A stretch of DNA of 64,000 nucleotides from a virus. A program made the position numbers and the translations under genes. How positions within the stretch are numbered: position 1 is the first letter of the stretch; each line of letters opens with the position of its first letter. The notes under the pieces are model-generated. The model saw only the letters and a list, made by a program, of their open reading frames with translations. It searched no databases and was not told the DNA's origin. The DNA lies in the IMG/VR virus record IMGVR_UViG_3300025030_000039, positions 188,878 to 252,877 of that record; one strand, written 5' to 3'. Below are positions 3,193 through 59,958 of this stretch, in pieces.

Positions 3193-3633
3193 ATGATGAC
3201 GTCTTATTATTCAGAACAAGAACTTCAAAATTATATTAGTGTAAAAGATAAAGATCTTAATACTTTATTTCAAGAATTACGAAAATTAATTCCAGATAGA
3301 TATTATTTAAGAGAATCTAGTGTAACTCTTAAAAATTTCTTTAGAGTTAAAAAGAAAGAACTTACTTTTTATAGCCTATTATTTAGATATGGAAATGATA
3401 ATGATTTTGAATGTCAAAATATAAATTTTGAAGTTACAGGTTCAAAATCTTCAATAAATATTAGTGTTGAAAAATCATACATTATGTCAATGTTTTACGG
3501 TCTAATAAACGGTTATAGTCACGCAATAAATAAAAATAAACAAAAAGTAAACATTAAGCAATATCTTCATAAAAATATTAAGCAAGAAAAAGAATTAAAA
3601 CGAAATATTTATGAAAACATTATTGTCGAATAA
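3193..3633 (+). CDS. hypothetical protein (146 aa)
   Basis: Track ORF. Confidence 0.45.
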   Translation: MMTSYYSEQELQNYISVKDKDLNTLFQELRKLIPDRYYLRESSVTLKNFFRVKKKELTFYSLLFRYGNDNDFECQNINFEVTGSKSSINISVEKSYIMSMFYGLINGYSHAINKNKQKVNIKQYLHKNIKQEKELKRNIYENIIVE

Positions 3634-3916
3634 CGATATAAAAAATTTAAACGATTTAGGATTTAAATTAAATATAACATCTAATTCAATAAAATATTTT
3701 ATTTATAAAGTAAGATATAATTATTTTATTGAATTAGATGTGCATGAAACAGAATCATCGATTTTAATAAAGGTTTCAAACAGATATGAAGATAAAAATT
3801 TTACCATATTTAATGGCACTTTTCAATCTATTGATTCATTAAAATATGTTTTATCAATAAGTAATATTGAAGATTGTGAATTAAAACAAAAATGTATAAC
3901 AAGTATTAAATACTAG
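3611..3916 (+). CDS. hypothetical protein (101 aa); ends with TAG
   Basis: Track ORF overlapping the upstream gene by 23 nt. Its stop codon is TAG, which argues against global TAG recoding. Confidence 0.4.
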   Translation: MKTLLSNNDIKNLNDLGFKLNITSNSIKYFIYKVRYNYFIELDVHETESSILIKVSNRYEDKNFTIFNGTFQSIDSLKYVLSISNIEDCELKQKCITSIKY

Positions 3917-18213: not shown

Positions 18214-18645
18214 TTAAATAAAATCATATTTCATAATTATCTTATTATCGATTTCTTTAACAACAGTCCATCCCATTTTTAAATGATATTCTTTTGCAAA
18301 AACTGTATCTAAAAATATAGTTTTATATCCTAATAATTTTGCATATTCAAATCTTTTTTCAGTTAACATCAATCCATATCCATTACCTCTATATTCTGGT
18401 TCAACCCATAACAATAAATTCCAGGGAGATATAGTCCTATCTATTTCATTAATAGTATCAAATAATCCACAACCTATAGGTTTATCATCTATTATCAATA
18501 CATAACAAACTGAATCAGATTCATTATTTAAATACCTTCTAATCTCACTTAAACTATATTCATCATCAACTTGCCAACGTTCTTTCATAATAGATGAAAC
18601 ATAATTAATATACATGTGAGTTAATTTTTCTATTTTAATTTCCAT
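18214..18645 (-). CDS. GNAT-family N-acetyltransferase
   Basis: VLIIDDKPIGCGLF and the WVEPEYRGNGYG (R/QxxGxG/A) acetyl-CoA-binding motif, followed by YAKLLGYKTIFLDT. Confidence 0.7.
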   Translation of the reverse strand: MEIKIEKLTHMYINYVSSIMKERWQVDDEYSLSEIRRYLNNESDSVCYVLIIDDKPIGCGLFDTINEIDRTISPWNLLLWVEPEYRGNGYGLMLTEKRFEYAKLLGYKTIFLDTVFAKEYHLKMGWTVVKEIDNKIIMKYDFI

Positions 18646-20066
18646 TCAAATTTATAATTGCCTGTTCCAAAACATCTATAATATCCCTTATCATGCATTA
18701 TCTCCACTTCAGTCATCAAGGAATCTGCTCCTTCTTTTACCAATTTATCTTTACGATATTTAAACCTATTCTCCCTAATTCCATCTACTACCCACCAATA
18801 ATTCAAACCAGTATGCACTATATATTCAAACCCTAATTTTGTATATAAATTATCTTGCTCATCAACCGTCCAATCACAATCTGCATAACTTACTACTCGT
18901 TCAGGTTTATACTCTTTAATAAAATATTTAAATAAACGACTGGCTCCACCAACAACCGAAGTATTTAATTTATTAGCAAACCGTAAAAGCTCCCATTCAT
19001 TTTCTTTAGCAACTTGATTTAAATTTTTACGTAAGGATCCGAAGGTCATTAATGATACTAACTCACCTTCATAATATAAACCTAATTTAATAGCAGCATT
19101 AGTATTGCCCTGTAAATGGTTCCTATTTAAAAATTCTCTACTATCACCAGAATTAACGGTTTTAATTACACATTTTCTAGCATACACTTTATCAGTAGAT
19201 AAATTTAATAAATTCTTTATTCTTGATTTTACTATATCTCTTTTGTTATACCAAACATCTTCCCATATATGTATTAAATTAATTCCCAATTCTTTGCATC
19301 TATTACTTTTATCTATATGATATTCTTTAGGTTTATTAAATTCATTATGCCAATATACTCCATTATGTTCAAATGCTATATTTTTATCTTCAATATAAAT
19401 ATCAAGTTCTCTATTTTTTAATTCTTTTTTAGAATTAATTCTAAATGGTTTTAAATAAATGTCTTTTATCCAATCTATTAATTCTATTTCAGAATTACTT
19501 TTTCCGTGATTAGGATTACATTTTAAACATGGATTAATATTTATATTTATTCTTCTATATAATAATTGAGAATCTATTATTGATATACTTTTACATTCAA
19601 CACATTCTATTTTTATTTTTTGTTGATCATCCCATTCTATTATTTTAATTTTATCTTTTAATTTTTCTTTAGCAAAAGGAAAATAATATTTATCTTTAAA
19701 ATAATTTGATTGTGTTATATGTTGTACTCCATATCTTTTTAGAACTGTTATTCTTGTTCTTTTTTCTTTTAAAACTATTGCACATTTTCTACTACAGCTA
19801 GAAGAATAACCAGGCATTATACCCATAAATTTAGATGAAGGTATTTTATTACCACATACTTCACATTTTGGAATTTCAGTTTTATCATGTAATGCATGAT
19901 AAAGTTTTTCTTTAAAAGACGTTAATTTTAGATTATTATTTATAGAATATTTTTCTATTTCTAATAATAGATTAGGATAATTATTTTTAAAAAATTCAAT
20001 TCTAGTAGTACTAGATGTAAGTTTTCCGTTTTTTATTAATATTTTATTTAAATCATTTGATAACAT
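18630..20066 (-). CDS. three-part fusion protein: N-terminal Cys clusters, DUF559/Vsr-like (PD-(D/E)XK-type) endonuclease core, C-terminal GNAT-like fold
   Basis: CEVCGNKIP...CSRKC Zn-ribbon-like clusters. ELDIYIEDKNIAFEHNGVYWHN....LGINLIHIWEDVW matches the DUF559 and very-short-patch-repair-like nuclease pattern. The C-terminal GLYYEGELVSLMTFGS...ELLRFA...VVGGASRLFKYFI...YTKLGF looks acyltransferase-like. Confidence 0.5.
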   Translation of the reverse strand: MLSNDLNKILIKNGKLTSSTTRIEFFKNNYPNLLLEIEKYSINNNLKLTSFKEKLYHALHDKTEIPKCEVCGNKIPSSKFMGIMPGYSSSCSRKCAIVLKEKRTRITVLKRYGVQHITQSNYFKDKYYFPFAKEKLKDKIKIIEWDDQQKIKIECVECKSISIIDSQLLYRRINININPCLKCNPNHGKSNSEIELIDWIKDIYLKPFRINSKKELKNRELDIYIEDKNIAFEHNGVYWHNEFNKPKEYHIDKSNRCKELGINLIHIWEDVWYNKRDIVKSRIKNLLNLSTDKVYARKCVIKTVNSGDSREFLNRNHLQGNTNAAIKLGLYYEGELVSLMTFGSLRKNLNQVAKENEWELLRFANKLNTSVVGGASRLFKYFIKEYKPERVVSYADCDWTVDEQDNLYTKLGFEYIVHTGLNYWWVVDGIRENRFKYRKDKLVKEGADSLMTEVEIMHDKGYYRCFGTGNYKFEWKLK

Positions 20067-22090: not shown

Positions 22091-22978
22091 ATGAAAACAA
22101 AAAGATTTGATAGTTCAGAAGGTAATGTTTGGAAATATGTATTTGACTTTGAAAATGCAGTTGCCGAAGCGGTACTTTACAAATATGAAAACTTTTACAA
22201 AAGGACTGTACTTTGCGTGAGTGTGCAAAGTGGATGCCCTGTTGGTTGCAAATTTTGCGGAACTGGCAAAAAGTTTATTAGAAACCTTACAAACTTAGAA
22301 ATAGTTGCACAGGTTAAACATTGCTTAAAAGACATGAATATTGAAAATGTTAATTCGGCTAGTGATCGTTTCCAAATAATGTTTATGAGTATGGGTGAAC
22401 CTACTTTAAATATTGATAATGTAATAACGGCAATAAAGGATTTAAACAACTTATATCCAAATGCTGAATTACTTATTTCAACTATGGGGGCAAAAAACAA
22501 TACCGCTTTTGAAAAACTGTTAAAAGTAAGTATTGAAATACAAAAGGTTGGTTTGCAATTTTCAGTACATGAAGCATTTGAAGAAAAAAGAAACCAATTA
22601 ATATCATTTAAAAATAAATTGAATTTACGTGAAATGCGTGATTTTGGCATTGAGTGGAATAGGCAAACAAAACGCCCTGTATATGTGAATTATTGCATTG
22701 GAGAAACAAACCAAAGCAATGAAGAGATGGATAGGCTTAAAGACTTATTTAGCCCTGCTCTTTTCAATTTTACATTTTCGGTTATTTGCTCTTCTGATGA
22801 AAACATGAAAGATAAAGGATATAGAGAACTGAACAAGATAAACACAATTACTTCATCATTTGTTGAATGTGGTTATAATGTTCGAGTTTTCGACCCTGCT
22901 GGTCAAGATGATATTGGGGGCGGGTGCGGACAATTATGGTATGTACAAAACTGGATGCGTGACCATCATTACCGCTAA
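22091..22978 (+). CDS. RlmN/Cfr-family radical SAM RNA methyltransferase-like protein
   Basis: SVQSGCPVGCKFCGTG is the CX3CX2C radical-SAM motif in an RlmN-like context. FMSMGEPTLN and the C-terminal DIGGGCGQLWY resemble the conserved RlmN/Cfr Cys motifs. Confidence 0.8.
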   Translation: MKTKRFDSSEGNVWKYVFDFENAVAEAVLYKYENFYKRTVLCVSVQSGCPVGCKFCGTGKKFIRNLTNLEIVAQVKHCLKDMNIENVNSASDRFQIMFMSMGEPTLNIDNVITAIKDLNNLYPNAELLISTMGAKNNTAFEKLLKVSIEIQKVGLQFSVHEAFEEKRNQLISFKNKLNLREMRDFGIEWNRQTKRPVYVNYCIGETNQSNEEMDRLKDLFSPALFNFTFSVICSSDENMKDKGYRELNKINTITSSFVECGYNVRVFDPAGQDDIGGGCGQLWYVQNWMRDHHYR

Positions 22979-23095: not shown

Positions 23096-23746
23096 ATGGA
23101 ATATAACGATAAAAATGGATTAGAATTAATAGCTGAATTAGCTAAAGTTAGTACTGATAAGCTAATGAATTTAACTATTTTAATACTAAGTAGTAATAAA
23201 TTGACTTCTATACCAAAAGAGATAGGATTACTTACTAATTTAAGAGAATTACGTTTATCCAATAATGAATTAACATCTGTACCAAAAGAGATAGGAAATT
23301 TGGTAAATTTACAACATTTACATTTAAATAGTAATAAATTAACTTCTATACCATTAGAAATATTTAATCTTATAAAATTAACTAAATTATTATTATATAG
23401 TAATAAATTGACTTCTATACCAAAAGAGATAGGAAATTTAATAAATTTACAGCGTTTATTTTTAAGTTATAATGCATTGACTTCATTACCTAAAGAGATA
23501 GGAAATTTGGTAAATTTATGTGAATTACTATATACAAATACTAAGATGGTTTCAATACCTATTGAGTTAGTTAAGTTAAATGTTTTTCCAAAGTTAGATT
23601 TATCAGAATTAACTCTGCCGTTATGGGCTGAATTATTTCAAGAAGATAAATTTAAAGTTATTAAGCATAAAGATTTTCCAAAAGATTTAAGAAATCATCC
23701 ATGGTTTATTGATGTAGCTTATGCAGATGATTTTGGACTTATTTAA
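23096..23746 (+). CDS. leucine-rich repeat protein (bacterial-type LRR)
   Basis: At least six tandem 23-aa repeats of the form L(T)SIPKEIGNLVNLQ.L.L..N. Confidence 0.8.
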   Translation: MEYNDKNGLELIAELAKVSTDKLMNLTILILSSNKLTSIPKEIGLLTNLRELRLSNNELTSVPKEIGNLVNLQHLHLNSNKLTSIPLEIFNLIKLTKLLLYSNKLTSIPKEIGNLINLQRLFLSYNALTSLPKEIGNLVNLCELLYTNTKMVSIPIELVKLNVFPKLDLSELTLPLWAELFQEDKFKVIKHKDFPKDLRNHPWFIDVAYADDFGLI

Positions 23747-24296: not shown

Positions 24297-25445
24297 TTAT
24301 TCTATATTTGGATAATTAAAAAGTTTATTTTGATAGTTTTTAAGAATAAGATTTCCATTTTCATCTTTACCTTGATAGTATTCAGGAAGAATAGGAATTT
24401 TACCTCCTCCACCTGGAGCATCAATTACAAAGGTAGGTATAGCATAGCCTGAAGTATTACCTCTAAGATTAAACATTATTTCTATTCCTTTTTCGATTGA
24501 GGTTCTAAAATGTTCTGAACCTAGAATTGGATCACATTGATATAAATAGTACGGTCTAACTCTAACTTTAAGTAATTCATGAAATAATTTTTTAAGAATT
24601 AATGAGTCATCATTAATTCCTTTAAGTAATACCGTTTGAGATCCTAATGGAATTCCAGCATTTGCTAATAAGTTGCAAGCTTGTTTTACTTCAGGAGTAA
24701 TTTCATCTGGATGAGTAAAATGTATACTCATAAAAAGAGGATGATATTTTTGTAGAATATTTATTAGTTTTTTGTTTATTCTTTGTGGAAGTATAACTGG
24801 AACTTTGGTTCCAATTCTTATTATTTCAATATGTTTGATATTTCTAATAGTTGATAATAAATAATCAAGTTGTGAATCAGGTAAAGTTAATGGATCACCG
24901 CCAGAAATTATTACATCTCTTATTTCAGTATGTTCTCGCAAATAATTAAAAGCAGATTCCCAATTATTTAAATTTTTTTCTTTTGCTACAATATGAGAAC
25001 GTGTACAATATCTACAATATGTTGCACAAAAATCTGTTGCTAAAAATAAAACTCTATCTGGATATCGATGTATAATATTAGGTACCGGATTATCTTCATT
25101 TTCATTTAATGGATCTGATAATTCACCCTCATTTATATAATATTCATTTACAATCGGAATAACGCTTTTTCTTAATGATTGCAATGAATTATTTTTATCT
25201 ATTAAGCTAGAATAATAAGGTGTTATTCTTATAGGTAATGAATCTTTATTATTATCATTTATAGATTTTTCATTATCATTTAAATTAAAAAAATCATTTA
25301 ATTGTTTAATGTTTGTAATACTATTTTTTATTTGCCATCGCCAGTCATTCCACTGTTCTTTTGATGTATTAGGAAAATTTTCTTTTAAATATTCTATTGA
25401 TTTTTCACTAGGTTCTATAAGTGAGATATCATCATTTTTGTCCAT
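24297..25445 (-). CDS. KamA-family radical SAM aminomutase-like protein (lysine 2,3-aminomutase / EpmB family)
   Basis: N-terminal WNDWRWQIKN, LATDFCATYCRYCTRS (CX3CX2C in the KamA context) and C-terminal GGGGK. Confidence 0.8.
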   Translation of the reverse strand: MDKNDDISLIEPSEKSIEYLKENFPNTSKEQWNDWRWQIKNSITNIKQLNDFFNLNDNEKSINDNNKDSLPIRITPYYSSLIDKNNSLQSLRKSVIPIVNEYYINEGELSDPLNENEDNPVPNIIHRYPDRVLFLATDFCATYCRYCTRSHIVAKEKNLNNWESAFNYLREHTEIRDVIISGGDPLTLPDSQLDYLLSTIRNIKHIEIIRIGTKVPVILPQRINKKLINILQKYHPLFMSIHFTHPDEITPEVKQACNLLANAGIPLGSQTVLLKGINDDSLILKKLFHELLKVRVRPYYLYQCDPILGSEHFRTSIEKGIEIMFNLRGNTSGYAIPTFVIDAPGGGGKIPILPEYYQGKDENGNLILKNYQNKLFNYPNIE

Positions 25446-39067: not shown

Positions 39068-39334
39068 ATGAAAAACCTTTTAAAAATAAAAACACTTCTA
39101 AAAAATATTCCAGAAAAAGTATTATATGATTTTGATTTATTGAAATTATTAAGAGAAGTTCAAATTAATGCTGTAGAAGTATCATTAGAATTAGCGGCTA
39201 AATCAGCTACGACTAAAGATGATCCTAATTCTTATGCCGGAAATACTGGAAGTGAATGTTCTGCTGATATCATAGTTGATACAAAATCAATATTAGATTG
39301 TAGACAAACTTTAATTAATCAAATTTATGAATAG
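39068..39334 (+). CDS. hypothetical protein (88 aa)
   Basis: Track ORF. Confidence 0.35.
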   Translation: MKNLLKIKTLLKNIPEKVLYDFDLLKLLREVQINAVEVSLELAAKSATTKDDPNSYAGNTGSECSADIIVDTKSILDCRQTLINQIYE

Positions 39335-39839
39335 AAATTGGAGTAGAAAAGATCGTCATACTAGAAGAAAAATAAAAGGTATTATTGATAAAATAGAATT
39401 TGCTACTAAAGATATGCCTATAATACTTGAAGTTGTTGCATGTGGTTCTTATAGAAGGCAGTTTGATTATTGTGGTGATTTAAATATGTTATTTAAATTA
39501 TCAAATATTGATAAAGTTGGAGATGTTATTCCTATACTTATAAATAAAATAGGACCTGATGAAATATTAACACATGGAAAAAAGAAATCAAATATTTTAA
39601 TAAATAAAGTTCAAATTGATTTAAATTTCTCAAGTGTTGAATCATGGCCTTATGCTTTATTACATCATACTGGATCAGTCGAAGAAAGTATTAGGTTACG
39701 AAAAGTAGCAAAAAATAAAAATTTAAAACTAAATGAAAAAGGATTATATAATGAAAATGATGAATTAATTAAATTATCTTCAGAAAGAGATATTTATAAT
39801 TATTTAGGTATTGAATATAGAAGTCCAGAAAATAGATAA
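39327..39839 (+). CDS. minimal DNA polymerase X-like nucleotidyltransferase (palm and thumb only, 170 aa)
   Basis: VACGSYRRQFDYCGDLNML matches the Pol-beta GS.RRG...GDxD motif with the second Asp replaced by Asn. IDLNF, LLHHTGS, LNEKGLY and ERDIYNYLGIEYRSPENR match the Pol-beta palm and thumb motifs. The size recalls the ~174-aa minimal Pol X of African swine fever virus. Confidence 0.65.
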   Translation: MNRNWSRKDRHTRRKIKGIIDKIEFATKDMPIILEVVACGSYRRQFDYCGDLNMLFKLSNIDKVGDVIPILINKIGPDEILTHGKKKSNILINKVQIDLNFSSVESWPYALLHHTGSVEESIRLRKVAKNKNLKLNEKGLYNENDELIKLSSERDIYNYLGIEYRSPENR

Positions 39840-52851: not shown

Positions 52852-53685
52852 ATGGATTTAAGTTATGACCGCAGAATTTTACTAAATTATTCGAAAGAAA
52901 TAGAAAAAAGATTATTAACACAAGCAGAGGAAATTGAATGCTCATACATTATTCAAAATTCTCAACCTTGTGATCCAAGAAGAATTAGTGCTATTCAAAA
53001 ACTCGTAAAACATAATTTACGATATGGATTATCAGTTGCAAAACAATATCAGAATCAGGGACTCCCCTTACCTGATTTAATTAATGAAGCAAGTATTGGA
53101 TTAATCAAAGCAGCTGAACGATTTGATTATAGTACACATAAAACTAAATTTATAACATGTGCTGTTTCATGGATAAAACAATGCATCAAAGATGCACTAT
53201 GTGAACACGCAAGAACTGTAAGATTACCTAGACAGATTCATAATTATAAAAATGAATTTGAAAAACTTAAAAATAAACAAATAGCTGCAAATGGAGTTTA
53301 TGATATTGAAACAATTGCAGAAGAAATGATTGTACCAAAAAGAATAGTACATGATTTAGAAAAAATAACTCAATTTGGTGTATCATTAGATGAACCTGTA
53401 ATGGGAGAAGATGATGGACAAAGAACAAGATTAGATACTTATATTCCCGAATCTGAAAAAAATAATGATGAAAATGAAGATATCAAAAGAAAAATAAAAT
53501 ATGGATTGTCATTTTTAAAAGAAAGAGATCAAAATATTATGAAAGATGCATATGGTATAGATAGAGAATATGCATTAAGTATTGAAGATGTCGCAATAAA
53601 ACATGATTTAACTGAAGTAATGATTAGAAAAATAATGAGAGATTCATTAGATATGTTAAAATATCTTATTAATAAGAAAAAATAA
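52852..53685 (+). CDS. sigma-70 family RNA polymerase sigma factor
   Basis: Region 2 is unmistakable: LVKHNLRYGLSVAKQYQNQGLPLPDLINEASIGLIKAAERFDYSTHKTKFITCAVSWIKQCIKDAL...ARTVRLP. A region 4-like HTH (LSIEDVAIKHDLTEVMIRKIMRDSLDMLK) sits at the C-terminus. Confidence 0.85.
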   Translation: MDLSYDRRILLNYSKEIEKRLLTQAEEIECSYIIQNSQPCDPRRISAIQKLVKHNLRYGLSVAKQYQNQGLPLPDLINEASIGLIKAAERFDYSTHKTKFITCAVSWIKQCIKDALCEHARTVRLPRQIHNYKNEFEKLKNKQIAANGVYDIETIAEEMIVPKRIVHDLEKITQFGVSLDEPVMGEDDGQRTRLDTYIPESEKNNDENEDIKRKIKYGLSFLKERDQNIMKDAYGIDREYALSIEDVAIKHDLTEVMIRKIMRDSLDMLKYLINKKK

Positions 53686-55601: not shown

Positions 55602-56540
55602 ATGCCAAAGATATTAATGAATTTGGAACAAGCTTTAGATGTATTTAAACATATAATAGCAATAACTGGAGATCAAAATTTTCATTTAGCAGGATCAGCA
55701 AGAAGAGGTAAAAAAGAAAATTTAAAAGATTTAGATATAATCTATTTAGGAGATGAAATTCCTGATATAGAAAATGCTATTTATGTTGCAGATGGACCAT
55801 CATTAAAAAGAATTAAATTAAGATATGAATTTTCAAAAGGAATATTTGATTATGTTTCTATGGATATTCATATTGCGAATAAATTAAATTTCGGTTCTAC
55901 TCTTTTATATTTTACAGGTTCTCGGGAATTTAATATTAATATGAGAAAAAATGCTATGTCTAAAGGATGGAAACTCAATAGACATGGATTGTTTAATCAA
56001 AATAATGAATTAATAGCGGCTGAAAATGAAATAGATATTTTTTCAGCATTAGAAATTCCTTTTGTTAATCCTGTAGATAGAACAATATTTAAATCTGAAC
56101 AAGATGAAGAAAATCAAAAATTAATAAATACTATACGTCAATTAGCAATATTTCATGCTATTGAAGGTGATCATTATCGATCATCAGCATATTTTAAAGC
56201 ATCTTCATCATTACAAGAAATTGGTAATATCAAAAAATCAAAAGAAAATAACGAACTTATTTGTATAGATAATGTTGGAAATTCAATAGCAGCTAAAATC
56301 ATCGAATTTTTTGATACGGGTAAAATACATAAATTAGAAAAATTAAAAGAAACATATCCAGTTGATGTAGAAGGATTATTAAGTTTAGAAGGAGTTGGAT
56401 ACAAAAGCTTATTTAAATTTTATAAATTATTAGGAATAGAAACACTTGATGATTTAAAGAAAGCATGTAAAGAAAATAAAATAGCAAATCTTCAAGGATT
56501 TGGATTATCATCTCAAGAAAAAATATTAAATCAACTATGA
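55602..56540 (+). CDS. DNA polymerase X-like protein with apparently permuted domain order (palm and thumb first, then 8-kDa/HhH fingers)
   Basis: The N-terminal half has the Pol-beta motifs HLAGSARRGKKENLKDLDII (GS.RRG...D.D), LLYFTGSREFNINMRKNAMSKGWKLNRHGLF and ENEIDIFSALEIPFVNP. The C-terminal half holds IDNVGNSIAAKIIEFFDTGKIHKLEKL and LEGVGYKSLFKFYKLLGIETLDDL, helix-hairpin-helix motifs like the Pol-beta 8-kDa and fingers domains. Confidence 0.65.
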   Translation: MPKILMNLEQALDVFKHIIAITGDQNFHLAGSARRGKKENLKDLDIIYLGDEIPDIENAIYVADGPSLKRIKLRYEFSKGIFDYVSMDIHIANKLNFGSTLLYFTGSREFNINMRKNAMSKGWKLNRHGLFNQNNELIAAENEIDIFSALEIPFVNPVDRTIFKSEQDEENQKLINTIRQLAIFHAIEGDHYRSSAYFKASSSLQEIGNIKKSKENNELICIDNVGNSIAAKIIEFFDTGKIHKLEKLKETYPVDVEGLLSLEGVGYKSLFKFYKLLGIETLDDLKKACKENKIANLQGFGLSSQEKILNQL

Positions 56541-56621
56541 CAGAATTTGAAATTATATTAAAACTTTTAGTTGTAATTGCGATTGTATTATGTTTAAGAT
56601 TAAAAATTAAAAAATCTACAA

Positions 56622-56822
56622 ATGAAAAAATGGGAAGAGATATTGAATAAAAAATTTCCTAACGAAGCTTTTGATAATGAATTAACAGCAATTCAAACTT
56701 ATTTATTAATAGCAGATTTAGATGAAGATGGAATTCCTACAAAGGACGAAATAAGAACATATTTAATTGAAATATTTGAAAAAGCATTTGAAAATAAATT
56801 TATGAATTGGGATAAAGTTTGA
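56622..56822 (+). CDS. hypothetical protein (66 aa)
   Basis: Track ORF. Confidence 0.35.
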   Translation: MKKWEEILNKKFPNEAFDNELTAIQTYLLIADLDEDGIPTKDEIRTYLIEIFEKAFENKFMNWDKV

Positions 56823-59181: not shown

Positions 59182-59958
59182 ATGCTAATAGATTTAACTT
59201 TAAAATGTAACGAACAATGTACTCATTGTATGGTAGATGCTCTTCCGACAGGTAAACATATGGAAGAAAAAACATTCATAGATTTATGTGGTTTCTTATT
59301 TATAATTAAACCTCCTATTGTTCAAATAAGCGGTGGTGAATTTACTCTTCATACTAATTTTTATGAGTATATTCAAAGATTAACTAATATGCTTCCAGAA
59401 AGTATGTTTTTACTTGAAAGCAATGGTTCATTTATAAATGATAAAGATAAAGTCAAAAAATTAAAAGATTTATTATCTATAAAAAATGTATATGGGCTTC
59501 AAATTAGAACTCATGAAAAATACTATCCAAACTTTGAAAATACAATGAAGAATCAAATGATTTTAAAATCATTACATCCTAAAGTTATGTTTTTCTCAGA
59601 TGGTATAGATGAGTTAGTTCCTATAGGAAGAGCAAAAACTAATTATCCAGATAACATAGCAACTAGAAGACCTCAGTGTTCAAATGTATTTTTATTAATT
59701 AAACAACCTGCTGCTAAAATAACTTCATTTAAAGAATTAATATTTACGTTACAAAGAAATGGAATATTCTGTAAACCTATGATTGATATCGAAGGAAATA
59801 TTAGAGCTGGTGAAACTCCATTTTGTCAAAAGTTTGGACATATTACCGATTCTTTAGATACTTTGTTCAATAATATTAAGAAAAGTGTACCGTGTGATGC
59901 TTGCGGATTAGTTAAAAATTACAAGCCTATAGAAAAATCTATTATATTCTCAGTTTAA
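59182..59958 (+). CDS. radical SAM protein (small, 4Fe-4S CX3CX2C plus SGGE motif), with extra C-terminal Cys residues
   Basis: LTLKCNEQCTHC is CX3CX2C. The QISGGEFTLH glycine-rich SAM-binding motif is typical of the activating-enzyme/QueE-like radical SAM subfamily. Five more Cys lie in the C-terminal third, ending in CDACG. Confidence 0.65.
   Translation: MLIDLTLKCNEQCTHCMVDALPTGKHMEEKTFIDLCGFLFIIKPPIVQISGGEFTLHTNFYEYIQRLTNMLPESMFLLESNGSFINDKDKVKKLKDLLSIKNVYGLQIRTHEKYYPNFENTMKNQMILKSLHPKVMFFSDGIDELVPIGRAKTNYPDNIATRRPQCSNVFLLIKQPAAKITSFKELIFTLQRNGIFCKPMIDIEGNIRAGETPFCQKFGHITDSLDTLFNNIKKSVPCDACGLVKNYKPIEKSIIFSV

What the first reader, a model, noticed from the sequence alone, without database searches (positions are those of the whole stretch)
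55602..56540. Second Pol X-like gene with circularly permuted domain order
In canonical Pol X the order is 8-kDa lyase, fingers (HhH), palm, thumb. Here the palm and thumb motifs (AGSARRGKKENLKDLDII; LLYFTGSREFNINMRKNAMSKGW; IDIFSALEIPFVNP) occupy residues ~30-170. The two helix-hairpin-helix modules that resemble the Pol-beta 8-kDa and fingers region (IDNVGNSIAAKIIEFFDTGKIHKLEKL; GVGYKSLFKFYKLLGIETLDDL) follow at ~200-300. This points to a permuted or domain-swapped Pol X, or a fusion of a minimal Pol X with a separate HhH lyase-like module. Together with the minimal Pol X at 39327, and MazG, HD, HAD and metallophosphoesterase hydrolases, the element seems to carry its own short-patch repair and nucleotide-sanitation toolkit.
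Basis: partly seen in the sequence, partly recalled or inferred. Interest (0 to 1): 0.7.

Follow-up and report, generated by a model that had tools for sequence, protein, structure and literature searches.

The report
Circularly permuted family-X DNA polymerase
A huge uncultured phage encodes a complete DNA-repair polymerase of the Pol beta/PolX type whose two halves are joined in the opposite order to every described relative; this rare but conserved natural rearrangement has apparently not been reported for this enzyme family.

Summary
ORF 55602-56540 (+, 312 aa) is a full PolX catalytic core with the order palm-thumb-linker-8 kDa-fingers. The canonical order is 8 kDa-fingers-palm-thumb. Each half matches Thermus PolX at about 3e-13. 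Swapping the halves in silico gives one end-to-end alignment with ordinary 320-aa PolX proteins (E 1e-48). All polymerase catalytic residues and the dRP-lyase lysine are conserved.

The window is part of LR756500.1, an unannotated 462-kb uncultured phage genome. The order is not an assembly artefact or a one-off. Four other proteins, 39-47% identical to one another except for one 70% pair, share it on AT-rich phage-like contigs from independent assemblies. Among the best 150 of 14,615 PolX-like hits in 1.84 billion representative proteins, only these match colinearly. None was found in 77 tested cellular loci, 50,697 deposited phage genomes or a viral structure library. Stand-alone 145-149-aa palm+thumb proteins nest inside the clade, apparently by loss of the C-terminal module.

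The most likely function is short-gap filling plus dRP-lyase activity as in Pol beta, with the lyase domain tethered to the thumb. Activity, 3D ring geometry and origin are untested. The "repair toolkit" context is weakly supported. Verdict: a new variant of a known kind, of moderate interest.

The parts
55602..56540 (+). Permuted PolX gene (312 codons plus TGA stop). The start may instead be Met6 at 55617, which matches the MNLEKAL/MNREKAL N-termini of the homologs.
55617..55889 (+). Palm (catalytic) subdomain, residues about 6-96. It carries the G31-S32-x-R34-R35 triphosphate motif and the metal-binding D43 (55728-55730), D45 (55734-55736) and D88 (55863-55865). The palm is shorter than in canonical PolX.
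   Evidence: Alignment to Pol beta numbering (G179/S180/R183, D190/D192/D256). Pol beta sequence verified against 1bpx_A. pLDDT 93-98.
55890..56081 (+). Thumb (Pol beta N-subdomain), residues 97-160. It has the YFTGS motif (Y103 F104 T105 G106), N111, R115, and ends with P157-x-D-R160.
   Evidence: PF14791 at residues 100-160, 72.3 bits, E 2.9e-20.
56082..56111 (+). New linker (residues 161-170, TIFKSEQDEE) joining the thumb's C-terminus to the N-terminus of the 8-kDa domain. The linker is 8-10 residues in all five members.
   Evidence: low pLDDT (about 59) in the full-length model.
56112..56342 (+). 8-kDa dRP-lyase-like domain with HhH1, residues 171-247. K232 (56295-56297) is the equivalent of the Pol beta K72 Schiff-base lysine, Y197 of Y39 and R193 of K35.
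   Evidence: PF14716 HHH_8 at residues 170-241, 39 bits against a cutoff of 30; aligns to TthPolX 3-145 and Pol beta 6-140; fold hits.
56343..56537 (+). Fingers (Pol beta D-subdomain) with HhH2 (G264-V-G266), residues 248-312. The protein ends right after the last fingers helix, so the canonical fingers-to-palm connection is the site of the new termini.
   Evidence: PF14520 HHH_5 at residues 257-312, 30.3 bits against a cutoff of 27; PF10391 is below its cutoff.
39327..39839 (+). Context only: a separate 170-aa palm+thumb 'minimal' PolX paralog. It belongs to a different lineage (30-35% identity to the permuted N-halves) and has Asn53 in place of the second catalytic Asp.

Best explanation
The gene encodes a natural circular permutant of the family-X DNA polymerase core (POLXc). 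The chain runs palm, thumb, an 8-10-residue linker, 8-kDa lyase domain, fingers. Relative to canonical PolX, the thumb's C-terminus is fused to the N-terminus of the 8-kDa domain, and new termini are opened at the former fingers-palm connection.

Shown: the permuted order; its conservation in five diverged proteins from AT-rich phage-like contigs; and retention of every polymerase catalytic residue and of the lyase lysine.

Inferred: the protein folds into the same four-subdomain ring as Pol beta. It acts on short gaps in the phage genome, filling 1-nt or short gaps and probably removing 5'-dRP through K232, as in Pol beta or ASFV-type base-excision repair or end repair.

Also inferred: in Pol beta the lyase domain touches the thumb only in the substrate-bound 'doughnut'. 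Here the covalent tether would hold that contact in place permanently, and the opening of the ring would move to the fingers/palm junction. The replacement of the Pol beta conformational-switch residues (R258, E295, Y296) throughout the clade fits altered open/closed dynamics.

Evolutionary inference: the permutation arose once. A sub-lineage later lost the now C-terminal 8-kDa+fingers module and became 145-149-aa minimal PolX proteins.
For: - Order: two non-colinear matches to TthPolX (3.4e-13 and 3.6e-13); the Pfam domain order; and the re-permuted sequence aligning end to end with five canonical PolX proteins (E 1e-48 to 4e-18) and with Pol beta.
- No PolX remnants in the flanks.
- Conservation: P0002, P0003, P0035 and P0183 share the order at 39-47% identity to one another and to the window protein, except for P0035/P0183 at 70%. 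They occur in independent assemblies and samples: P0001 on 5 contigs, P0003 on 10.
- Rarity: in the exhaustive HMM search, only P0003, P0001 and P0035 are single full-length colinear matches among the best 150 of 14,615 hits. Of the cellular loci, 77 of 80 are canonical and none is permuted. Only LR756500.1 itself matches colinearly among 50,697 phage records. There is no colinear match in BFVD.
- Catalytic residues: equivalents of G179/S180/R183, D190/D192/D256, T273/G274, R283, K72 and Y39 are conserved in all five. R258, E295 and Y296 are replaced in all five, yet are at least 90% conserved in the 75-sequence alignment (70 canonical plus the 5 permuted proteins).
- Fold: the full model has pLDDT 84.3 and pTM 0.67. 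PDB hits are Pol lambda, Pol beta and ASFV PolX over about 180-200 columns, as expected for a permutant under a sequential aligner. The C-half model has pLDDT 94.7, and its top 50 hits are all family X.
- Feasibility: the lyase domain contacts the N-subdomain in the Pol beta ternary 'doughnut' (PMC8375306 and PMC6158618).
- Tree: permuted plus solo proteins form a clade at 97%. The solo proteins are monophyletic (98%) and sister to P0035/P0183 (84%).
- Repair link: ligase-like genes lie directly upstream of the solo relative P0125 and of the canonical-order relative P0159.
Against: - No biochemical data exist for any member.
- I could not obtain model coordinates or PAE, so the relative 3D placement of the two halves (ring closure, linker span) is not verified. 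The 8-kDa domain and linker have only moderate confidence in the full-length model (pLDDT 59-72).
- The C-half model was built on an alignment of canonical N-termini and therefore leans toward that fold.
- K68 of the Pol beta 5'-phosphate pocket is Ser in all members (but Ala in close canonical relatives). N279 is Gly in P0002/P0003 and the YF pair is HL/FL in P0035/P0183, so fidelity and lyase efficiency may differ.
- No ligase, AP endonuclease or glycosylase was found in the 64-kb window, so the pathway assignment rests on family knowledge and on neighbours of relatives.
- The tree is NJ on 151 columns, and the basal position of P0001 is weakly supported (39%).
- Only the top 150 hits of the exhaustive search were visible, so more divergent permuted members may exist.
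Confidence: 0.8

Rival explanations
1. Origin by fusion, not by duplication and truncation. A phage minimal PolX (palm+thumb) acquired a separately encoded 8-kDa+fingers HhH module at its C-terminus. The result looks like a circular permutation but is a chimera of two lineages. The function would be the same.
For: Both modules exist as autonomous proteins in nature. There are 145-170-aa palm+thumb proteins and 148-161-aa 8-kDa+fingers proteins in mid-contig bacterial contexts. The best canonical relatives of the N-half are short ~320-aa PolX proteins, several of which are labelled Peregrinibacteria or Peribacteria. Those of the C-half are mostly long PolX-PHP proteins.
Against: The solo palm+thumb proteins closest to the family nest inside the permuted clade and do not branch at its base. 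The stand-alone 8-kDa+fingers proteins are only about 30% identical and have no adjacent palm/thumb gene. The difference in best relatives comes from a comparison set selected on summed score, which forces a negative correlation. The linker length (8-10 residues) is about the sum of the native C-tail and N-head, as expected from a tandem duplicate.
Confidence: 0.25
2. The C-terminal 8-kDa+fingers module does not pack against its own palm. It works in trans instead, either in a domain-swapped dimer or as a flexible DNA-end-binding arm. The enzyme would then behave like a minimal ASFV-type PolX with an appended HhH DNA-binding and lyase tail, not like a closed Pol beta ring.
For: The fingers are no longer covalently joined to the palm. 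The linker and 8-kDa region have lower confidence in the full-length model, and pTM is only 0.67. The palm+thumb part evidently survives alone in the solo sub-lineage. The R258/E295/Y296 switch residues are lost.
Against: The lower confidence coincides with shallow alignment depth (5 sequences) over that region. With a deep alignment the module models at pLDDT 94.7. The break and join points sit exactly at the native subdomain boundaries. The lyase-thumb contact is native to Pol beta.
Confidence: 0.12
3. The gene is a rearranged, non-functional relic or an assembly artefact of a canonical PolX gene.
For: The gene is very rare. The record is a metagenome assembly without annotation.
Against: The same protein is found on 5 contigs from NCBI, JGI and Logan assemblies. 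Four further diverged members with intact ORFs come from independent samples and assemblers. All catalytic residues are conserved across members that are 39-47% identical apart from one 70% pair. There are no PolX fragments in the flanks.
Confidence: 0.02

Closest known systems
Short bacterial/archaeal PolX core proteins without a PHP domain (about 315-345 aa; several of those recovered here are labelled Peregrinibacteria or Peribacteria)
   Same: They have the same four subdomains, similar size, no PHP domain and no BRCT domain. They are 30-38% identical over each half, and the re-permuted protein aligns end to end with them.
   Different: Their order is 8kDa-fingers-palm-thumb; here it is palm-thumb-8kDa-fingers. 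The palm is shorter here, and the equivalents of R258, E295 and Y296 are replaced.
Mammalian DNA polymerase beta (and the Pol lambda catalytic core)
   Same: The catalytic triad, the GS-x-RR motif, YFTGS, N279, R283, the lyase K72 and Y39, and the two HhH motifs are all conserved. These enzymes are the top fold matches. They are the likely functional model: gap filling plus dRP lyase.
   Different: Identity is about 28-33%. The chain order is permuted, the lyase domain is tethered to the thumb, K68 is Ser, and the R258/E295/Y296 switch is absent.
Thermus thermophilus / Deinococcus / Bacillus PolX (PolX1: POLXc + PHP)
   Same: These are the best sequence and fold matches for both halves.
   Different: There is no PHP exonuclease/AP-endonuclease domain here. 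The NCBIfam PolX equivalog scores 128.7 against a cutoff of 426. The order is permuted.
Minimal PolX of African swine fever virus (174 aa, palm + thumb only)
   Same: The N-terminal 160 residues correspond to the whole ASFV enzyme (TM normalised to the target 0.74). The derived solo proteins (145-149 aa) and the window ORF 39327 have that architecture. All are virus-encoded.
   Different: The finding's protein retains 8-kDa and fingers domains, placed at the C-terminus.
PolX2 group of Timinskas et al. 2026 (PMC12926913)
   Same: It is described as lacking the N-terminal 8-kDa domain and the PHP domain, and as having an extra alpha-helical C-terminal domain. It is found in bacteria, archaea, eukaryotes and viruses. 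Superficially that is a similar layout.
   Different: Its C-terminal domain is called novel, meaning it was not recognised as 8-kDa or HhH. Here the C-terminal module is plainly HHH_8 + HHH_5 and 30-40% identical to canonical N-termini. I had no PolX2 sequence, so any relationship is untested.

Membership tests
DNA polymerase family X (POLXc core) | Pol beta-type nucleotidyltransferase palm with a G-S-x-R-R motif and three metal-binding aspartates | tested here: met
   G31 S32 R34 R35, D43, D45 and D88 align to Pol beta G179/S180/R183 and D190/D192/D256. All are invariant in the five permuted members.
DNA polymerase family X (POLXc core) | Thumb (N-subdomain) domain, Pfam PF14791, above the gathering score | tested here: met
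   72.3 bits against a cutoff of 25, residues 100-160.
DNA polymerase family X (POLXc core) | 8-kDa HhH domain (Pfam PF14716) with the lyase lysine | tested here: met
   39 bits against a cutoff of 30, residues 170-241. K232 is the equivalent of K72 and is invariant in the family.
DNA polymerase family X (POLXc core) | Fingers (D-subdomain) with a second HhH motif | tested here: met
   HHH_5 scores 30.3 bits against a cutoff of 27. The specific PF10391 model is below its cutoff (16.7 against 29.8). Residues 171-309 align to TthPolX 3-145. Fold match TM 0.74-0.75.
DNA polymerase family X (POLXc core) | Canonical N-to-C order: 8kDa, fingers, palm, thumb | tested here: not met
   The order here is palm, thumb, 8kDa, fingers. 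This is the feature that makes it a variant.
DNA polymerase family X (POLXc core) | Template-directed gap-filling DNA polymerase activity and dRP-lyase activity | not testable with these tools
   Inferred only, from conserved residues.
Bacterial PolX (PolX1, NCBIfam NF006375 equivalog) | POLXc followed by a C-terminal PHP domain; whole-protein score above the cutoff | tested here: not met
   128.7 bits against a cutoff of 426; no PHP domain; 312 aa.
Minimal viral PolX (ASFV type) | Palm + thumb only, with no 8-kDa or fingers domains | tested here: not met
   The finding's protein has both extra domains. The feature is met only by its truncated relatives (P0125, L096-L099) and by window ORF 39327.
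PolX2 (PMC12926913) | No 8-kDa domain, no PHP domain, and a novel alpha-helical C-terminal domain | not tested
   No PolX2 sequence or model was available: afdb50 was offline and the supplements hold no sequences. By description the C-terminal domain differs.
Other HhH families (NusA, RuvA, ComEA, LigA HhH) | The C-terminal HhH region matches these families better than PolX | tested here: not met
   HHH_2 scores 21.2, below its cutoff of 27. LigA models score 14-16 bits against cutoffs of 369-1051. The top 50 fold hits of the C-half are all family X.

The most novel reading that the evidence does not exclude
The permutation is functionally meaningful and not a neutral rearrangement. Tethering the lyase domain covalently to the thumb would hold the enzyme permanently in the 'doughnut' contact that Pol beta forms only on substrate binding. 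That would move the DNA-entry gate to the fingers/palm junction and dispense with the R258-E295/Y296 conformational switch, giving a PolX with different gap-size preference, processivity or fidelity. It would also put the accessory domains at the C-terminus, where a single nonsense or deletion event yields a working minimal PolX. That would be a general evolutionary route to ASFV-like minimal polymerases.
Probability: 0.25. Interest if true: 0.7.

Novelty: new variant of a known kind. Interest (0 to 1): 0.55.

Why it matters
Family-X polymerases are among the best-studied repair enzymes. A recent survey of over 3000 bacterial species with complete genomes describes the bacterial family as showing low architectural variability. 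A conserved natural circular permutant shows that the four-subdomain ring tolerates a different chain connectivity.

It also provides a ready-made natural experiment on two long-discussed features of Pol beta: the role of the transient lyase-thumb contact, and the open-to-closed switch. The permuted protein, its naturally truncated relatives and canonical-order relatives form a comparison series that can be expressed and assayed directly.

The finding adds a repair polymerase variant to the gene repertoire of huge phages. It also warns that domain-order-sensitive annotation, such as equivalog models and sequential structure aligners, will under-score such proteins.

Tried and rejected
I used real sequences instead, which left the 8-kDa/fingers half with only five rows. 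I then modelled the C-half separately.
I used PDB and BFVD instead.
3. P0197 and P0241, with 65-74% apparent coverage, looked like possible duplication intermediates. They are ordinary PolX-PHP proteins whose alignment runs on into the PHP domain.
4. I compared which canonical proteins score best against each half. The result was a negative rank correlation (-0.55), but the comparison set had been selected on total score, so the test is biased and was discarded as evidence for a chimera.
5. I searched for a split precursor. Stand-alone 8-kDa+fingers proteins exist, but in unrelated bacterial contexts with no adjacent palm/thumb gene.
6. I searched for a ligase partner. The ligase-like genes next to relatives have no homolog in the window or beside the other permuted genes.
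7. Synteny: the neighbours of the permuted genes are not shared between genomes.
8. Literature: four searches for a permuted PolX or for this record found nothing. The 2026 polymerase survey does not mention a permutation.
9. The first two tree or alignment scripts timed out and were rewritten.
10. I did not attempt dN/dS, because the members are too diverged (synonymous sites saturated).
Full report
**Observation**

All five quoted motifs are at the stated places.

Pfam finds three domains:
- the Pol beta thumb at residues 100-160 (72.3 bits);
- the Pol beta 8-kDa HhH domain (HHH_8) at 170-241 (39 bits);
- a second HhH domain (HHH_5) at 257-312 (30.3 bits).

Against solved structures the protein gives two non-colinear matches to Thermus thermophilus PolX. 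Residues 171-309 align to PolX 3-145 (8-kDa + fingers, 3.4e-13). Residues 11-214 align to PolX 167-364 (3.6e-13); the palm+thumb part of that match ends near query residue 160, and the remainder runs on into the region that follows the thumb in Thermus PolX.

I then cut the protein after residue 165 and swapped the halves. The re-permuted sequence aligns as one block with ordinary ~320-aa PolX proteins, for example 1-308 against 5-319 of P0004 at E 1.3e-48. It also aligns with human Pol beta, 27-308 against 34-334. I checked the Pol beta sequence used for numbering and it is identical to PDB 1bpx_A.

The domain order is therefore palm-thumb-8kDa-fingers, a clean circular permutation of the canonical 8kDa-fingers-palm-thumb. 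The new termini lie exactly at the former fingers-to-palm connection. A new 8-10-residue linker (TIFKSEQDEE in the window protein) joins the end of the thumb to helix A of the 8-kDa domain.

**Not an artefact, and not a one-off**

The window is part of LR756500.1, an unannotated 462,018-bp 'uncultured phage genome assembly'. The identical protein is on five contigs from NCBI, JGI and Logan assemblies. tblastn with canonical PolX proteins finds no PolX remnants in the flanks. The only other PolX-like sequence in the 64 kb is the 170-aa ORF at 39327.

Four other proteins have the same order: P0002 (297 aa), P0003 (296 aa), P0035 (293 aa) and P0183 (293 aa). They are 39-47% identical to the window protein and to each other, except P0035/P0183 at 70%. 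They come from independent samples and assemblers. One source is a 348-kb contig that IMG/VR lists as viral. All carrier contigs are AT-rich, at 24-26% GC. The neighbouring genes are not shared with the window.

Both halves are conserved between members. N-halves are 44-83% identical and C-halves 36-65%.

**How rare it is**

- A profile of the permuted proteins was scored against 1.84 billion representative proteins. There were 14,615 PolX-like hits. Among the best 150, only P0003, P0001 and P0035 matched as a single full-length stretch, and every other full-length PolX matched in two pieces.
- I tested 80 loci recovered from one genome per bacterial or archaeal species. Of these, 77 have the canonical order, 3 have palm/thumb only (two of those genes lie at a contig end), and none is permuted.
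- Among 50,697 deposited phage genomes, only LR756500.1 itself gives a colinear full-length match. Other phage PolX genes (Cobetia Carin-5, Yersinia YerA41 and GN1, a Vibrio phage) match only the palm+thumb half.
- The viral structure library has no colinear full-length match.
- Literature searches for a permuted PolX found nothing. A 2026 survey of bacterial polymerases states that family X shows low variability, with only two groups, PolX1 and PolX2.

**Functional residues**

Residues were mapped to Pol beta numbering. All five permuted proteins keep:
- the triphosphate-binding G179/S180/R183;
- the three metal-binding aspartates D190/D192/D256 (D43, D45, D88 here);
- T273/G274 and the minor-groove R283;
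- in the 8-kDa domain, the Schiff-base lysine K72 (K232 here) and Y39. K35 is Arg or Lys.

The window protein also keeps Y271/F272 and N279.

Differences:
- K68 is Ser. It is Ala in close canonical relatives.
- The palm is shortened.
- The three residues that form the Pol beta open/closed switch are all replaced: R258 to His or Tyr, E295 to Arg or Gln, and Y296 to His, Trp, Ile or Leu. Those three positions are at least 90% conserved in the 75-sequence alignment of 70 canonical and the 5 permuted proteins.

The role of R258, E295 and Y296 in Pol beta is from my own knowledge of the Pol beta literature and was not tested here.

**Structure**

AlphaFold2 on the full protein gave mean pLDDT 84.3 and pTM 0.67. 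The palm and thumb are at 93-98, the fingers at 75-93 and the 8-kDa domain at 59-72. The lower values coincide with the part of the alignment that had only five sequences.

Foldseek against the PDB returns Pol lambda, Pol beta and ASFV Pol X. Only about 180-200 columns align and TM is about 0.45, which is what a sequence-order-dependent aligner should give for a permutant.

Modelled alone with a deep alignment, the C-terminal 152 residues reach pLDDT 94.7. Their top 50 PDB matches are all family-X polymerases. Thermus PolX gives TM 0.74-0.75, rmsd 2.7-2.8 Å and 32% identity. No NusA, RuvA or ComEA appears.

I could not obtain coordinates or PAE, so the relative placement of the two halves is untested. 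It is sterically plausible: in the Pol beta ternary complex the N-terminal lyase domain physically contacts the C-terminal N-subdomain, forming a doughnut around the DNA, whereas the apoenzyme is extended (PMC8375306 and PMC6158618).

**Most likely mechanism**

Shown: this is an intact, conserved PolX core with permuted connectivity.

Inferred: it folds into the same ring and fills short gaps in phage DNA. It probably also removes 5'-dRP through K232, as Pol beta and the ASFV repair system do.

The tether would keep the lyase domain next to the thumb at all times, and the break in the ring would lie between the fingers and the palm. The loss of the switch residues fits such a change in dynamics.

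A repair role has indirect support. A ligase-like gene with a KxDG/KxNG motif lies directly upstream of the solo relative P0125 (L012) and of the canonical-order relative P0159 (L102). No ligase, AP endonuclease or glycosylase was found in the window itself.

**Evolution**

Searches also recovered complete stand-alone palm+thumb proteins of 145-149 aa: P0125, and the proteins encoded in L096/L097, L098 and L099. Where the contig allows a check, each has its own stop codon. They are 41-56% identical to the permuted N-halves.

I built a bootstrapped neighbour-joining tree of the palm+thumb region, with 151 columns and 300 replicates:
- permuted and solo proteins form one clade (97%);
- the solo proteins are monophyletic (98%);
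- the solo proteins are sister to P0035/P0183 (84%), so they sit inside the permuted group.

The simplest reading is one permutation event followed by loss of the now C-terminal module in one sub-lineage.

Whether the permutation itself arose by tandem duplication and truncation or by fusion of separate modules is unresolved. The linker length fits the sum of the native tails. No intermediate was found, and the test of whether both halves share the same relatives was biased.

The window's own minimal PolX at 39327 is a different lineage (30-35% identity) and carries Asn in place of the second catalytic Asp.

**Verdict**

This is a new architectural variant of a well-known enzyme family, conserved but very rare, and so far seen only in AT-rich phage-like contigs. 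It is not a new kind of system, and its activity is untested. A possible relationship to the PolX2 group, which is described as having a 'novel' helical C-terminal domain, could not be tested for lack of a sequence.

Noticed in passing
window 39327-39839 (+): The other PolX gene is a 170-aa palm+thumb protein of a separate lineage (30-35% identity to the permuted N-halves). Its DxD motif reads D51-L-N53, so the second metal-binding Asp is Asn. The YF pair is HH and N279 is Ser. It may be catalytically impaired or have a changed function.
   Followed up: partly
L012 534-1373 and 1380-1817; L102 1055-1732 and 1748-2779: Small ATP-ligase-like genes (279 and 225 aa, with KxDG/KxNG motifs and faint DNA_ligase_A_M / weak RNA_ligase hits) lie directly upstream of a solo palm+thumb PolX (P0125) and of a canonical-order phage-like PolX (P0159). 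This is a recurring ligase-PolX pair. No homolog is present in the window.
   Followed up: partly
L096 3295-3744, L097 3792-4241, L098 3247-3687, L099 1302-1751, L012 1380-1817: A clade of complete 145-149-aa minimal PolX proteins (palm+thumb only), smaller than ASFV Pol X, nests within the permuted family. They occur on AT-rich (26-32% GC) phage-like contigs.
   Followed up: yes
L103 2293-2754; L104 4001-4462; P0329: Stand-alone 153-161-aa proteins consist only of the PolX 8-kDa + fingers module. They sit in bacterial chromosomal contexts (downstream of a two-component histidine kinase and response regulator, near GidB and glycosyltransferases) with no polymerase half nearby. Their function is unknown.
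   Followed up: partly
L102 1748-2779 (P0159): This canonical-order PolX shares family-specific features with the permuted clade: the GSARRGK motif, a shortened palm, R258 replaced and an NEHGL motif. It was the top- or near-top-scoring canonical relative of the N-half, yet its own 8-kDa/fingers half is very divergent. It may be the closest canonical-order relative.
   Followed up: partly
window 22091-22978, 24297-25445 (-), 59182-59958: There are three radical-SAM proteins in 64 kb, one with a lysine-2,3-aminomutase C-terminal domain. The window also holds a sigma-70-like factor (52852-53685), an LRR protein (23096-23746), a class-I glutamine amidotransferase/peptidase C26 (28146-28742) and a weak REase_MTES_1575 match (18630-20066). 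Clp protease, GNAT, NIF phosphatase, DUF5662 and UPF0114 hits occur among the remaining ORFs; their coordinates were not resolved.
   Followed up: partly
L097 4253-5385 (also 3499-3795): A run of five or more small paralogous genes, all starting MKKLVKE(D/S)LNE, flanks the solo PolX gene. It looks like a locally expanded family of unknown function.
   Followed up: no
L001 7505-8671: A TnpB/OrfB_IS605 (Cas12f-like) gene lies about 1.3 kb upstream of the permuted PolX gene in the 348-kb contig. A tRNA-synthetase class 1c fragment and a DNA_pol_B_exo2/RNase_H_2 protein are nearby.
   Followed up: no
window 55602-55619 and 56535-56650: There is a start-codon ambiguity: Met1 at 55602 or Met6 at 55617, the latter matching the homolog N-termini. 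No obvious Shine-Dalgarno sequence precedes either. The TGA stop overlaps the ATG of a 37-codon hydrophobic ORF (an ATGA overlap) that is called as a gene in the public record.
   Followed up: partly
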